The position numbers and the translations under genes are program-made. Below the pieces are notes generated by a model. It ran no database searches, was not told where the DNA came from, and was given only the letters and a program-made list of their open reading frames with translations. From the NCBI RefSeq assembly GCF_056712565.1, contig NZ_CM160072.1: 64,000 nt of DNA; one strand, 5' to 3'. Of the stretch, positions 61,433 to 62,461 are shown piece by piece (positions within the stretch are counted from its first letter, which is position 1; each line of letters begins with the position of its first letter).

Positions 61433-61436
61433 CGTT

Positions 61437-61467
61437 GCGGAATGCGGTGCGCCATACCGCATTCCGC
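61437..61467. repeat. perfect 12-bp inverted repeat (stem-loop) between convergent uvrD and the DUF62 gene
   Basis: gcggaatgcggt-gcgccat-accgcattccgc; no flanking T-run, so REP-like or RNA-stabilising hairpin rather than a classical intrinsic terminator. Confidence 0.6.
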
Positions 61468-61476
61468 ATCAGCACC

Positions 61477-62379
61477 TTACTTAGCGCACTTCTTCACATC
61501 AATATTCCAGTCAGCACCAGACGCAACCTGATGTTTCTGCGCGAAATTATCCATATTCAGCGCCACGGAAACATTCAATAAGCTGTTCAGATACACCATC
61601 GGCTGGCCTTCCGGCACATCGCCGAAGCTTGCGACATACGGCATTTTCCCTGCGTATTTTTGCTGGGAACCTTCGGAAATGGTCACACACAACGTGTCGT
61701 TGAGTTTGATTCCTGCCTGATTCAGCAACTCGTCGCTGATATTGCTCCAGACGTTGCCGTACTGAATATCGAGAATCGGGATATTGCCCTTCACTTCACC
61801 TTTTGTTGCTTTGGCTTTCTGATAAGAAAGTTCGACAACTTTTGCAGGAAGCTCTGGCCCCACCTGCTCGAACGTGATCGCCCCGGAAGCCAGACGTGCA
61901 CCGGTGTAGGCATACACGTCACGACCGTGGAAGGTATATGACTTTTCGGAACCTTTCAGACGGTTGGTTTTTTCATCGATTTGCCGGACGCTCTCAATAC
62001 CCAGCGATTCCGCCACCAACGTGAGCGTACCGTTATCTGGTGAAACGAAGTACTGACCATTTTTGGTTTTCAGCACTACCGATTTACGGTCTGTACCAAC
62101 ACCTGGATCGACCACGCTAACAAACACCGAACCTTGCGGCCAGTAACTGGCAGTCTGATACAGGCGGTAAGCGCCTTCCCAGATGTTATACGGTGGAATT
62201 TCGTGTGTTAAATCAAATATTTTAAGATTATGGTCAACGCCGAAAGCGACCCCTTTCATCGCCGAGACGGCGCCATCTTTCAGGCTAAAATCCGTTTGTA
62301 AAATCAAAGCGTTATCCGCATAAGCGGATGATGACCCCAGACAGGTTAATAAAAATAATGTTGCGAGCGTTTTTTTCAT
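61477..62379 (-). CDS. signal-peptide-bearing SAM hydroxide adenosyltransferase-like protein (DUF62 / fluorinase-chlorinase fold)
   Basis: 300-aa ORF; cleavable-looking signal peptide MKKTLATLFLLTCLGSSSAYA; family motifs TDFS..DG, HEIPPYN, VVDPGVGT, FHGRDVYA, QYGNVWSN. Confidence 0.72.
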   Translation of the reverse strand: MKKTLATLFLLTCLGSSSAYADNALILQTDFSLKDGAVSAMKGVAFGVDHNLKIFDLTHEIPPYNIWEGAYRLYQTASYWPQGSVFVSVVDPGVGTDRKSVVLKTKNGQYFVSPDNGTLTLVAESLGIESVRQIDEKTNRLKGSEKSYTFHGRDVYAYTGARLASGAITFEQVGPELPAKVVELSYQKAKATKGEVKGNIPILDIQYGNVWSNISDELLNQAGIKLNDTLCVTISEGSQQKYAGKMPYVASFGDVPEGQPMVYLNSLLNVSVALNMDNFAQKHQVASGADWNIDVKKCAK

Positions 62380-62461
62380 TTTTGTTTCCCTTCATTTATC
62401 TGATGATTTTCCAGCTGTGTAGCCAGCCCCAGTTTGTCTGGCCTCCTCGAGTGTACAATGT

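What the first reader, a model, noticed from the sequence alone, without database searches (positions are those of the whole stretch)
61433..62461. Extra gene between uvrD and yigE: a signal-peptide-bearing SAM hydroxide adenosyltransferase-like (DUF62) protein
A 300-aa ORF on the minus strand carries the hallmark motifs of the DUF62 / S-adenosyl-L-methionine hydroxide adenosyltransferase fold (fluorinase FlA, chlorinase SalL, SAM hydrolases): TDFS..DG, HEIPPYN, VVDPGVGT, FHGRDVYA, YGNVWSN. It also has a classical Sec signal peptide (MKKTLATLFLLTCLGSSSAYA). Characterised members of this fold act on SAM in the cytoplasm, so a periplasmic or secreted one is unusual and suggests a different substrate, such as an extracellular nucleoside or SAM-like metabolite. 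To my recollection the K-12 uvrD-yigE interval is short and lacks this gene. Codon usage looks host-like, so it is probably a long-resident variable gene rather than a recent transfer.
Basis: partly seen in the sequence, partly recalled or inferred. Interest (0 to 1): 0.7.

Follow-up and report, generated by a model that had tools for sequence, protein, structure and literature searches.

The report
Exported SAM-hydrolase-like accessory gene
About half of E. coli strains carry a gene for an exported version of an enzyme that normally splits the cofactor SAM inside cells; its job outside the cytoplasm is untested, and Helicobacter pylori's copy (HP0709) evidently came from the Escherichia lineage.

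Summary
Window 61477-62379 (-) is a 300-aa ORF with both DUF62 / SAM hydroxide adenosyltransferase domains (Pfam 4.8e-53 and 3.9e-18) and the DUF62 fold. It keeps the Asp-Arg-His water-activating triad of the hydrolase branch (D91, R98, H151), so it is not a halogenase.

A 21-residue Sec-type signal peptide (AYA|DN) precedes the domain. All 84 clade members collected, from more than ten phyla, have an equivalent N-terminal extension.

The gene is in 2412 of 5426 complete E. coli genomes. K-12 lacks it and has a 146-bp REP-like gap. Its synonymous divergence between Escherichia species equals that of the flanking core genes, so it is ancestral and was later lost, not recently gained.

Exported DUF62 proteins are common in databases but none is characterised.

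My best guess is periplasmic hydrolysis of SAM to adenosine plus methionine for uptake. This is inferred, not shown.

The unexpected result is that H. pylori HP0709 is 89% identical in protein and 83% in DNA, and nests inside the enterobacterial clade. That indicates transfer from the Escherichia lineage.

The parts
61477..62379 (-). CDS of the 300-aa exported DUF62 / SAM hydroxide adenosyltransferase-family protein (RefSeq WP_000751617.1 in ATCC 11775)
   Evidence: ORF list; Pfam domains; 100% match to the annotated CDS in NZ_CP033092.2
62317..62379 (-). Codons 1-21: Sec-type signal peptide MKKTLATLFLLTCLGSSSAYA, with predicted signal peptidase I cleavage after AYA
   Evidence: n/h/c-region heuristics. 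Equivalent extensions occur in all 84 clade members although their sequence is not conserved. In the AF2 model this part is a low-confidence N-terminal helix, residues 2-14. C13 is not a conserved lipobox Cys: it is absent in H. acinonychis P0072 and in H. pylori SA213A.
61858..62304 (-). SAM_HAT_N domain (aa 26-174). Contains D30 (ribose-binding Asp), D35, the triad D91-R98-H151 and the PDNGT motif
   Evidence: Pfam E = 4.8e-53; conservation in 84 sequences; triad defined in PMC10491745 and PMC4859513
61507..61788 (-). SAM_HAT_C domain (aa 198-291). Contains LDIQYGN (the IDxxFGN motif, with N209) and C231
   Evidence: Pfam E = 3.9e-18; conservation
61486..61488 (-). Codon of Cys298, the candidate disulfide partner of Cys231 (codon at 61687-61689)
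   Evidence: Both Cys are present in 38 sequences, neither in 46, and one alone in none. The mature domains otherwise have almost no Cys.
62380..62461 (-). 82-bp spacer between the yigE stop codon and the start codon, with the Shine-Dalgarno-like GAAGGG. It has no terminator, so co-transcription with yigE is possible
   Evidence: Sequence; no terminator and no strong promoter match in the spacer; the last ~30 nt are conserved even in H. pylori
61436..61471 (.). Hairpin with a 13-bp stem between the convergent uvrD and DUF62 genes. It is REP-like or a bidirectional terminator candidate, and has no U-tract
   Evidence: RNA fold of -31 kcal/mol, z = -4.97 against shuffles
62462..63226 (-). yigE (DUF2233 / phosphodiester glycosidase family; also has an N-terminal hydrophobic segment). 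It is the upstream, co-oriented neighbour and is context only
   Evidence: Annotation. No yigE homologue lies next to the DUF62 gene outside Escherichia.
59270..61432 (+). uvrD (DNA helicase II), the convergent downstream neighbour that marks the conserved insertion point
   Evidence: Annotation. The same uvrD-DUF62 convergence is seen in L087 from another enterobacterial genus.

Best explanation
The gene encodes a Sec-exported, periplasmic, soluble member of the hydrolase branch of the DUF62 / SAM hydroxide adenosyltransferase family.

After cleavage at AYA|DN, the roughly 279-residue mature enzyme probably forms the family's trimer. In Proteobacteria it is probably stabilised by a C231-C298 disulfide. 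It would use the Asp91-Arg98-His151 triad to activate water for SN2 attack at C5' of S-adenosyl-L-methionine, releasing adenosine and L-methionine.

Because the reaction would occur outside the cytoplasm, it cannot serve cofactor quality control. The most likely role is scavenging. SAM cannot be imported as such, and aged extracellular SAM would be enriched in the (R)-sulfonium epimer. The enzyme would convert it into two transportable nutrients, which nucleoside and methionine transporters then take up. This parallels the way periplasmic UshA, CpdB and AphA act on nucleotides.

Shown here: family membership, fold, catalytic residues, export signal features, population distribution and vertical history in Escherichia.

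Inferred: cleavage and periplasmic location, the disulfide, SAM as substrate, and the scavenging role.

The gene is an old resident of the uvrD locus in Enterobacteriaceae and was lost by deletion in K-12-like strains.
For: Family and fold:
- Pfam 4.8e-53 and 3.9e-18.
- PDB sequence hits.
- AF2 model pLDDT 93.8, with Foldseek TM 0.87-0.91 to 2zbu, SalL and PH0463.

Hydrolase chemistry:
- D30, D35, D91, R98, R153, D154 and N209 are conserved in at least 98% of 84 clade members. H151 is conserved in 79 of 84.
- D-x6-R and FHGRD align to the T. maritima DUF62 protein. SalL has Y, T and Y at the corresponding positions.
- The triad is described as diagnostic of hydrolases and absent from halogenases (PMC10491745, PMC4859513).
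- Only one clade-specific residue separates signal-bearing from signal-less relatives.

Export:
- All 84 members from more than ten phyla carry 21-51-residue extensions with a charged n-region, a hydrophobic core (Kyte-Doolittle at least 1.86) and small residues before the domain start. Some have lipoboxes instead.
- Mature domains are Cys-free or carry the strictly co-occurring C231/C298 pair.
- Cys content is lower in signal-bearing than in signal-less relatives: median 1 versus 3, p = 0.0012.
- The only in-frame ATG after codon 1 is M41, downstream of the essential D30 (direct reading of the sequence).
- The orthologue HP0709 has been found in H. pylori outer-membrane-vesicle proteomes and is seroreactive in patients (PMC8756444, PMC11394471).

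Functional constraint: dN/dS is about 0.045 within Escherichia and about 0.06 between E. coli and H. pylori.

Hints of scavenging:
- Fusions of exported DUF62 to a phosphatase domain and to an alpha/beta hydrolase domain.
- HP0709 rose 2.87-fold in H. pylori biofilm, alongside the methionine permease metI at 2.18-fold (PMC6212823).
- H. pylori depends entirely on purine salvage (PMC13328217).
Against: - No biochemical datum exists for any exported member in the literature I could search.
- NCBIfam (R)-SAM hydrolase equivalog models score 131.8 and 114.7 bits, far below their cut-offs of 350 and 470.
- No conserved gene neighbourhood across phyla links it to Met, SAM or nucleoside transport.
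- No SAM or Met riboswitch was found in 23 non-proteobacterial loci.
- The availability of extracellular SAM in these habitats is not established.
- Five Synergistetes members have H151 replaced by F, so the triad is not universal in the clade.
- The OMV proteome that lists HP0709 also lists many ribosomal proteins, so it is weak evidence for location.
- The C231/C298 co-occurrence may reflect a single evolutionary event, and its geometry could not be measured because no model coordinates were available.
- A TTG at codon 25 could in principle start a signal-less form.
Confidence: 0.45

Rival explanations
1. It is an exported enzyme of the DUF62 fold that acts on a substrate other than SAM. Candidates are another 5'-substituted adenosine, or a SAM-derived or SAM-like extracellular metabolite.
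For: All characterised DUF62 enzymes are cytoplasmic, and SAM is mainly an intracellular metabolite. NCBIfam equivalog cut-offs are not met. [quoted passage not shown]
Against: The active-site residues, including D35 (which aligns with the Met alpha-amino-binding Asp of fluorinase) and the triad, are unchanged. Only Y207/F differs between signal-bearing and signal-less relatives. The SN2 chemistry needs a good leaving group at C5' such as a sulfonium, which limits the alternatives.
Confidence: 0.2
2. Same chemistry, but the purpose is not nutrition. The enzyme would generate extracellular adenosine or deplete extracellular SAM as a host-modulating or competitor-directed activity. This would resemble the immunosuppressive adenosine produced by pathogen surface enzymes.
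For: The clade is enriched in host-associated bacteria: E. coli, Shigella, H. pylori, Aeromonas, Pasteurellaceae and Edwardsiella. An HP0709 SNP is associated with gastric cancer in a GWAS (PMC6090961). HP0709 is seroreactive and found in OMVs (PMC11394471, PMC8756444).
Against: The clade is equally common in soil and water Bacteroidota, Verrucomicrobia and Planctomycetota. No secretion-system or virulence-gene linkage was seen. GWAS hits in H. pylori are confounded by population structure.
Confidence: 0.12
3. It is an ordinary cytoplasmic (R)-SAM hydrolase. On this reading the hydrophobic N-terminus is not a cleaved signal: it would be an uncleaved anchor, or translation would start at the internal TTG at codon 25.
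For: No SignalP run and no experiment were possible. The TTG at codon 25 would give a protein starting MILQTDF, like the signal-less relatives that start MKHALVF|QSDFG.
Against: Signal-like extensions are maintained in 84 of 84 members despite no sequence conservation. The Cys pattern fits an exported protein. No Shine-Dalgarno sequence precedes codon 25, whereas GAAGGG precedes codon 1 and is conserved even in H. pylori.
Confidence: 0.08
4. It is a SAM-dependent halogenase (chlorinase or fluorinase) making 5'-halo-5'-deoxyadenosine. Some automatic annotations of HP0709 say this ('adenosyl-chloride synthase', salL).
For: SalL and ClA1 are strong sequence and fold matches. The annotation is used in PMC6090961 and PMC6212823.
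Against: The Asp-Arg-His triad is present, and halogenases lack it (PMC10491745). The SalL Y70 position is D91. The fluorinase model TIGR04507 scores 84 bits against a cut-off of 400. No downstream halometabolite pathway genes are present.
Confidence: 0.03
5. The E. coli gene is a recent horizontally acquired islet inserted between uvrD and yigE.
For: Presence is patchy, at 44% of complete genomes, and the gene is absent from K-12. GC of 48% is slightly below the window mean of 52%.
Against: dS between Escherichia species equals that of the flanking core genes. The gene sits at the same position next to uvrD in a different enterobacterial genus. Edwardsiella and Aeromonas carry it in the corA/recQ neighbourhood. 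Every absence-class row listed in the spread sample spans the same ~418 bp between the flanks, and in K-12 that gap is REP-like sequence, which looks like a deletion scar. There are no mobile-element genes.
Confidence: 0.05

Closest known systems
Hydrolase-type DUF62 enzymes: P. horikoshii PH0463 (1wu8/2wr8), M. jannaschii MJ1651 (2f4n/22uy), S. tropica StDUF62, and the uncharacterised T. maritima protein 2zbu
   Same: Two-domain SAM_HAT_N plus SAM_HAT_C architecture and the same fold (TM 0.85-0.90). The Asp-Arg-His triad, the ribose Asp, the adenine Asn and the PxNG and IDxxFGN-type motifs are shared (PMC4859513).
   Different: Identity is only 30-35%. This protein has a cleavable signal peptide and a Cys pair, so it would act outside the cytoplasm, where (R)-SAM 'cofactor repair' makes no sense. 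It scores below the NCBIfam equivalog cut-offs.
SAM-dependent halogenases: SalL (2q6i), ClA1 (7ccg) and fluorinase FlA (1rqp)
   Same: Same fold, SAM-binding scaffold and SN2 adenosyl-transfer logic.
   Different: Halogenases lack the triad and use Y70/G131 or T80/S158 for halide binding. This protein has D91, R98 and H151 instead (PMC10491745, PMC4859513).
Helicobacter pylori HP0709 / jhp0648
   Same: It is the orthologue. It is 300 aa with no indels, 89% identical in protein and 83% in DNA, and has the same signal peptide layout, Cys pair and C-terminus KKCAK. Its identity as HP0709 is fixed by gene context and by the published primer F1-jhp0648/HP0709, which matches the gene.
   Different: It sits in a different genome context (rsmH-HP0708-HP0709-homA/B) and has an AT-shifted composition, with GC3 of 0.45 against 0.53. 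It appears in gastric-cancer GWAS, OMV and serology lists but has no assigned biochemical function.
Periplasmic nucleotide-scavenging hydrolases of E. coli: UshA, CpdB and AphA. This is a functional analogy drawn from my own knowledge.
   Same: The proposed logic is the same: convert a non-importable adenosine-containing compound in the periplasm into transportable products.
   Different: The folds and chemistry are unrelated (phosphoester hydrolysis versus displacement at C5' of a sulfonium). The analogy is an inference and was not tested.

Membership tests
DUF62 / SAM hydroxide adenosyltransferase superfamily (Pfam PF01887 + PF20257) | N-terminal SAM_HAT_N domain detected by HMM | tested here: met
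   E = 4.8e-53, covering model positions 2-145 of 145
DUF62 / SAM hydroxide adenosyltransferase superfamily (Pfam PF01887 + PF20257) | C-terminal SAM_HAT_C beta domain detected by HMM | tested here: met
   E = 3.9e-18, covering model positions 1-83 of 84
DUF62 / SAM hydroxide adenosyltransferase superfamily (Pfam PF01887 + PF20257) | Two-domain fold as in PH0463, SalL and FlA | tested here: met
   AF2 pLDDT 93.8. Foldseek E = 3e-32 to 2zbu, target-normalised TM 0.87-0.91 to 2zbu, 7ccg, 6rz2 and 1wu8.
DUF62 / SAM hydroxide adenosyltransferase superfamily (Pfam PF01887 + PF20257) | Substrate-binding Asp (FlA D16) and Asn (FlA N215), and the motifs PxNGL and IDxxFGN (PMC4859513) | tested here: met
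   D30 is in 84 of 84 sequences and N209 in at least 98%. The motifs read PDNGT (114-118) and LDIQYGN (203-209), with conservative L-to-T and F-to-Y changes.
DUF62 / SAM hydroxide adenosyltransferase superfamily (Pfam PF01887 + PF20257) | Homotrimer with active sites at subunit interfaces | not testable with these tools
   Only a monomer model without coordinates was available.
Hydrolase branch (SAM hydrolase, adenosine-forming) | Conserved Asp-Arg-His water-activating triad (PH0463 D68-R75-H127) | tested here: met
   D91 and R98 have the same i, i+7 spacing, and H151 lies in FHGRD. D and R are in 84 of 84 sequences and H in 79 of 84.
Hydrolase branch (SAM hydrolase, adenosine-forming) | Catalyses SAM + H2O -> adenosine + L-methionine | not testable with these tools
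   This needs an enzyme assay. No published assay of an exported member was found.
(R)-S-adenosyl-L-methionine hydrolase equivalogs (NCBIfam NF058624, NF053629) | Score at or above the curated equivalog cut-off | tested here: not met
   131.8 bits against a cut-off of 350, and 114.7 against 470. I therefore do not file it as a member of these equivalogs.
(R)-S-adenosyl-L-methionine hydrolase equivalogs (NCBIfam NF058624, NF053629) | Stereoselectivity for the (R)-sulfonium epimer | not testable with these tools
   Requires NMR or HPLC kinetics on epimer mixtures.
SAM-dependent halogenases (fluorinase TIGR04507; chlorinase SalL) | Halide-binding residues (FlA T80/S158; SalL Y70/G131), absence of the triad, and the fluorinase HMM cut-off | tested here: not met
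   D91 occupies the SalL Y70 position and the triad is present. TIGR04507 scores 84.3 bits against a cut-off of 400.
Sec/SPase I-exported proteins | Tripartite signal peptide (charged n-region, hydrophobic h-region, A-x-A c-region) that is cleaved | tested here: inconclusive
   The sequence features are met in this protein and in 84 of 84 relatives, and the Cys pattern fits export. There was no SignalP run and no experimental proof of cleavage or localisation.
Bacterial lipoproteins (SPase II) | Lipobox L-[ASTVI]-[GAS]-C with a conserved Cys | tested here: not met
   The sequence is LLTC, with T at position -1 and Cys at residue 13. The Cys is missing in H. acinonychis P0072 and H. pylori SA213A. 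Some distant clade members (L053, L059) do have lipoboxes.

The most novel reading that the evidence does not exclude
Exported DUF62 enzymes may form a widespread, so far unstudied extracytoplasmic SAM-scavenging or adenosine-generating system found in more than ten bacterial phyla. On this reading the enzyme harvests methionine and a purine nucleoside from environmental, largely (R)-epimerised SAM. H. pylori, which depends on purine salvage and (from my own knowledge) requires methionine, captured the gene from the Escherichia lineage as a single-gene cassette, and this gene became the cancer-GWAS locus HP0709.
Probability: 0.3. Interest if true: 0.7.

Novelty: new variant of a known kind. 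Interest (0 to 1): 0.5.

Why it matters
The only role proposed for DUF62 hydrolases is intracellular removal of the inactive (R)-SAM epimer, and even that is debated (PMC12120602). A large, strongly conserved clade that is exported cannot perform that role. Members share 56-76% identity across phyla, and dN/dS is about 0.05.

Assaying one member, for example this E. coli protein, would directly test whether bacteria harvest extracellular SAM. It could also reopen the question of what the family is for.

The result gives a concrete biochemical hypothesis for H. pylori HP0709, a gene flagged by gastric-cancer GWAS, serology and OMV proteomics but lacking a function. It also documents an apparent Escherichia-to-Helicobacter gene transfer.

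A practical point: BL21, the usual expression host for SAM enzymology, carries the gene, whereas K-12 does not.

Tried and rejected
- Conserved gene neighbourhood. I clustered ORFs from 84 loci. Only lineage-level synteny appeared (the Aeromonas and Edwardsiella genes lie near recQ), with generic neighbours such as a GGDEF protein, a LysR regulator, MacB, an RND pump, glgA, xseA and dnaJ. No cross-phylum partner emerged.
- Functional linkage to yigE. No yigE homologue lies near the gene outside Escherichia.
- SAM or Met riboswitches and other Rfam elements. None was found at gathering thresholds in 23 loci from Firmicutes, Fusobacteria, Thermotogota, Synergistetes and Bacteroidota.
- Promoter and terminator scan. 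There is no convincing promoter in the 82-bp spacer, and counts were not above the shuffled expectation. By eye I saw no MetJ, PurR or CRP-like box in the spacer.
- Literature. I searched for DUF62 with signal peptide or periplasm, for WP_000751617, for HP0709/jhp0648, for 'hydroxide adenosyltransferase' and for 'adenosyl-chloride synthase'. No biochemical or localisation study of an exported member turned up. The two key DUF62 papers, PMC2692205 and PMC7736106, are not held, so I cannot exclude that they mention signal peptides.
- Halogenase reading. Rejected on the triad and the HMM cut-offs.
- Recent-islet reading. Rejected on dS parity with the flanking genes.
- Lipoprotein reading. Rejected because the Cys is not conserved.
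- Disulfide geometry. It could not be checked because model coordinates are not returned.
- Helicobacter cetorum and other Helicobacter species. I only know that no other Helicobacter species was among the 80 loci kept of 124.
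Full report
**1. The observation**

The window holds one long ORF in the uvrD-yigE interval, at 61477..62379 on the minus strand (300 aa, ATG start). The coordinates in the finding, 61433-62461, are the whole intergenic interval between the uvrD stop (61432) and the yigE stop (62462).

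Pfam finds SAM_HAT_N at residues 26-174 (E = 4.8e-53) and SAM_HAT_C at residues 198-291 (E = 3.9e-18). phmmer against PDB sequences gives these hits:
- the Thermotoga maritima DUF62 protein 2zbu, 7.5e-44;
- chlorinases ClA1 and SalL, about 1e-36;
- MJ1651 and PH0463, about 1e-34;
- fluorinases, about 1e-23.

An AlphaFold2 model built on a 61-sequence alignment has mean pLDDT 93.8. Residues 1-20 form a lower-confidence helix. Foldseek matches only DUF62-fold structures with E <= 0.001, at target-normalised TM 0.79-0.91.

**2. Which branch of the family**

[quoted passage not shown] It activates water, and the halogenases lack it; they use Y70/G131 (SalL) or T80/S158 (FlA) (PMC10491745, PMC4859513).

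This protein has D91 and R98 in VVDPGVGTDR, with the same i, i+7 spacing, and H151 in FHGRD. In the pairwise alignments the T. maritima protein shares all three residues, while SalL has Y, T and Y at those positions.

D30 corresponds to the FlA D16 ribose ligand. D35 corresponds to FlA D21 (the D16+5 position; this mapping is from my own knowledge). N209 corresponds to FlA N215. The PxNG and IDxxFGN-type motifs are present.

NCBIfam places the protein below every equivalog cut-off:
- (R)-SAM hydrolase models: 131.8 against 350 and 114.7 against 470;
- fluorinase model: 84 against 400.

PGAP accordingly names it only at family level. It therefore works like a SAM hydrolase but is not a certified member of the characterised equivalogs. 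It is not a halogenase, although some pipelines label the H. pylori orthologue 'adenosyl-chloride synthase / salL' (PMC6090961, PMC6212823).

**3. Export**

The N-terminus MKKTLATLFLLTCLGSSSAYA|DNALILQTDF has two lysines, a hydrophobic core and an A-x-A site four residues before the first conserved domain residues.

I collected 84 clade members from one genome per species and re-derived their N-termini. Every one has a 21-51-residue extension with the same three-part character, although the extensions do not align. The taxa include Escherichia, Helicobacter, Aeromonas, Pasteurellaceae, Edwardsiella, Thorsellia, Neisseriales and Burkholderiales MAGs, Desulfobacterales, Chitinophagaceae and Cytophagales, Verrucomicrobia, Planctomycetota, Synergistetes, Tissierellia, Fusobacteria and Thermotogota. 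A few members have lipoboxes instead.

Signal-less relatives start 6-11 residues before the same QTDFG motif.

Mature domains of the clade contain essentially no cysteine apart from the C231/C298 pair. That pair is either wholly present (38 sequences: Proteobacteria, Helicobacter and a Desulfobacterales MAG) or wholly absent (46 sequences), and never half present. This fits a periplasmic disulfide. However, it may trace to a single evolutionary event, and I could not measure the geometry.

Among the 80 full-length 50%-identity representatives nearest the query, 49 are signal-bearing and 27 are signal-less. Their median Cys counts are 1 and 3 (Mann-Whitney p = 0.0012).

C13 is not a lipobox cysteine, because it is absent from some Helicobacter orthologues. 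No SignalP run or experiment was possible. I rate export as likely (about 0.85) but not proven.

**4. Substrate**

I compared 43 signal-bearing and 18 signal-less relatives column by column. Only one position is conserved in the former and different in the latter: Y207 versus F, in the IDxxFGN motif. All catalytic and ligand-binding positions are shared.

The simplest reading is the same reaction in a different compartment.

**5. History in E. coli**

The window is 100% identical to E. coli ATCC 11775. The CDS is found once, on the chromosome, in 2412 of 5426 complete genomes. These include O157:H7, O55:H7, NC101 and BL21-Gold(DE3). K-12 lacks it.

Every absence-class row listed in the spread sample spans the same ~418 bp between the flanks. 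In K-12, where I aligned the gap, it is 146 bp of REP-like sequence.

I compared the window with two other Escherichia species representatives, L003 and L004. Synonymous divergence (dS) for the gene and its flanking genes is as follows:

| Gene | dS vs L003 | dS vs L004 |
|---|---|---|
| DUF62 gene | 0.28 | 0.35 |
| uvrD | 0.37 | 0.29 |
| corA | 0.19 | 0.27 |
| yigB | 0.21 | 0.25 |

dN/dS for the gene is about 0.045.

A metagenomic contig from a different enterobacterial genus (L087) carries an 88%-identical orthologue, again convergent with the 3' end of uvrD. On that contig uvrD is 82% identical in DNA and 96% in protein. Edwardsiella has the gene beside recQ with corA 5 kb away, and Aeromonas has it about 2.3 kb from recQ.

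An 82-bp spacer without a terminator separates the gene from yigE, so co-transcription is possible. A 13-bp-stem hairpin (-31 kcal/mol, z = -4.97) lies between the gene and uvrD. yigE is not linked to the gene in any other genus.

**6. The unexpected relative**

The closest non-Escherichia homologue is from Helicobacter pylori and H. acinonychis. It is 300 aa with no indels, 88-89% identical across the whole protein including the signal peptide, and its 90%-identity cluster holds 2579 member sequences.

Gene context places it at gyrA-flgR-uvrA-hopE-rsmH-HP0708-[gene]-homA/B-HP0711-rpoN. The published primer 'F1-jhp0648/HP0709' lies inside the gene. Together these identify it as HP0709.

At the DNA level the E. 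coli and H. pylori genes are 83% identical, with 64% identity at third codon positions, dS about 1.0 and dN 0.059. That is closer than E. coli is to the other enterobacterial genus (78% DNA identity, dS saturated).

Neighbour-joining bootstraps from 200 replicates are:
- Helicobacter + Escherichia: 96%;
- plus L087/P0047: 100%;
- plus Edwardsiella: 96%;
- Escherichia monophyletic: 97%.

The H. pylori gene therefore nests inside an Enterobacterales clade that otherwise follows organismal relationships. This points to transfer from the Escherichia stem lineage into the H. pylori / H. acinonychis ancestor.

DNA similarity extends only about 30 nt upstream, including the ribosome-binding site, and about 8 nt downstream. 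In H. pylori the gene is bracketed by a ~220-bp direct duplication of intergenic, promoter-like sequence. HP0709's GC3 of 0.45 is at the upper end of its neighbours' range, 0.30-0.48.

I found no paper describing this transfer, but my literature access is partial.

**7. What is known about HP0709**

It has no biochemical characterisation. The literature I found reports:
- a non-synonymous SNP among the top gastric-cancer GWAS hits, where the authors note conflicting annotations (PMC6090961);
- its presence in OMV proteomes, which are lists that also contain ribosomal proteins (PMC8756444);
- antibodies to it that differ between patient groups (PMC11394471);
- a 2.87-fold rise of its transcript in biofilm, alongside the methionine permease metI (PMC6212823).

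H. pylori lacks de novo purine synthesis and relies on salvage (PMC13328217). Its methionine requirement is from my own knowledge.

**8. Mechanism proposed**

After Sec export and cleavage, the enzyme would hydrolyse extracytoplasmic SAM at C5' to adenosine and L-methionine, both of which can be imported. Extracellular SAM is not turned over, so it should drift towards the (R)-epimer that characterised DUF62 hydrolases prefer (PMC12120602; bioRxiv 10.1101/2025.08.29.672840). The family's stereochemistry would thus suit scavenging.

Weak supporting hints are fusions of exported DUF62 to a Y_phosphatase3 domain (Fervidobacterium) and to an alpha/beta hydrolase.

Counting against a defined pathway, I found no conserved operon partners and no riboswitches. 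Five Synergistetes members have lost the His.

My confidence by step is:
- family and fold, about 0.97;
- hydrolase-type chemistry, about 0.7;
- export, about 0.85;
- SAM as the physiological substrate, about 0.6;
- the scavenging role, about 0.4.

**9. Verdict**

This is a real gene that was correctly recognised. It is not a recent transfer into E. coli, and it is not unusual in sequence space. It does represent an uncharacterised exported variant of a family whose biological purpose is still debated.

The link to HP0709 and the apparent Escherichia-to-Helicobacter transfer are the most interesting by-products. Interest is moderate, at 0.5. The question is readily testable with one enzyme assay and one growth experiment.

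Noticed in passing
L083:8001-8903 (H. pylori CP079344.1), compared with window 61477-62379: H. pylori HP0709/jhp0648 is the orthologue: 89% identical in protein, 83% in DNA, with no indels. It nests inside the Enterobacterales clade (bootstrap 96-100%) as sister to Escherichia. It is closer to E. coli than another enterobacterial genus is. This implies inter-phylum transfer from the Escherichia lineage into the H. pylori / H. acinonychis ancestor.
   Followed up: yes
L083:7708-7919 and L083:8909-9129: About 220 bp of intergenic, promoter-like DNA upstream of HP0709 is repeated (71-81% identity) directly downstream, ahead of homA/B, with a spacing of about 1200 bp. DNA similarity to E. coli covers only the CDS plus about 30 nt upstream and 8 nt downstream. 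This looks like the scar of a single-gene insertion.
   Followed up: partly
L001:3134-3279 (K-12), compared with window 61433-62461: In the K-12 empty site the gene is replaced by 146 bp containing REP/BIME-like palindromes (GCCGGATGCGG... / ...CCGCATCCGGC). Every absence-class row listed in the spread sample of E. coli genomes spans the same ~418 bp between the flanks.
   Followed up: partly
window 61436-61471: A 13-bp perfect-stem hairpin lies between the convergent uvrD and DUF62 genes (-31 kcal/mol, z = -4.97). It has no U-tract. It may be a bidirectional terminator or a REP-like element.
   Followed up: partly
L039, L047, L051, L054, L056 (Synergistetes loci): These exported clade members have FFGRD instead of FHGRD, so the triad His is replaced by Phe. 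This suggests altered or lost hydrolase chemistry in that lineage.
   Followed up: no
L063:5971-7887 and L072:5953-7875 (Fervidobacterium); P0161: Longer exported forms exist. One has a signal peptide, SAM_HAT_N, two SAM_HAT_C domains and a Y_phosphatase3 domain (639 aa). Another is DUF62 fused to an alpha/beta hydrolase (672 aa).
   Followed up: partly
NC_012947.1 4452431-4453333 (hit H69): E. coli BL21-Gold(DE3), the usual host for expressing SAM-dependent enzymes, carries the gene at 95% DNA identity, whereas K-12 strains do not. This could be a background activity in periplasmic or whole-cell SAM assays.
   Followed up: no
window 62462-63226 (yigE): yigE, an exported DUF2233 / phosphodiester glycosidase family protein, evolves unusually fast between Escherichia species. 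Its dN is 0.032-0.036, against 0.0018 for uvrD and 0-0.004 for corA, at similar dS.
   Followed up: no
L087:1-1842 (Logan ERR11042197 contig): An unidentified Enterobacteriaceae genus (uvrD 82% identical in DNA to E. coli) has the DUF62 gene convergent with uvrD. A 70-aa hydrophobic ORF lies between them, and no yigE is present within the 215 bp upstream.
   Followed up: partly
L053, L059; P0124, P0160, P0193, P0220, P0267: Several Bacteroidota and other homologues carry lipoprotein-type signals (for example LLTAC|Q and LLGGC|A) rather than SPase I sites. Anchoring therefore differs among exported DUF62 proteins.
   Followed up: no
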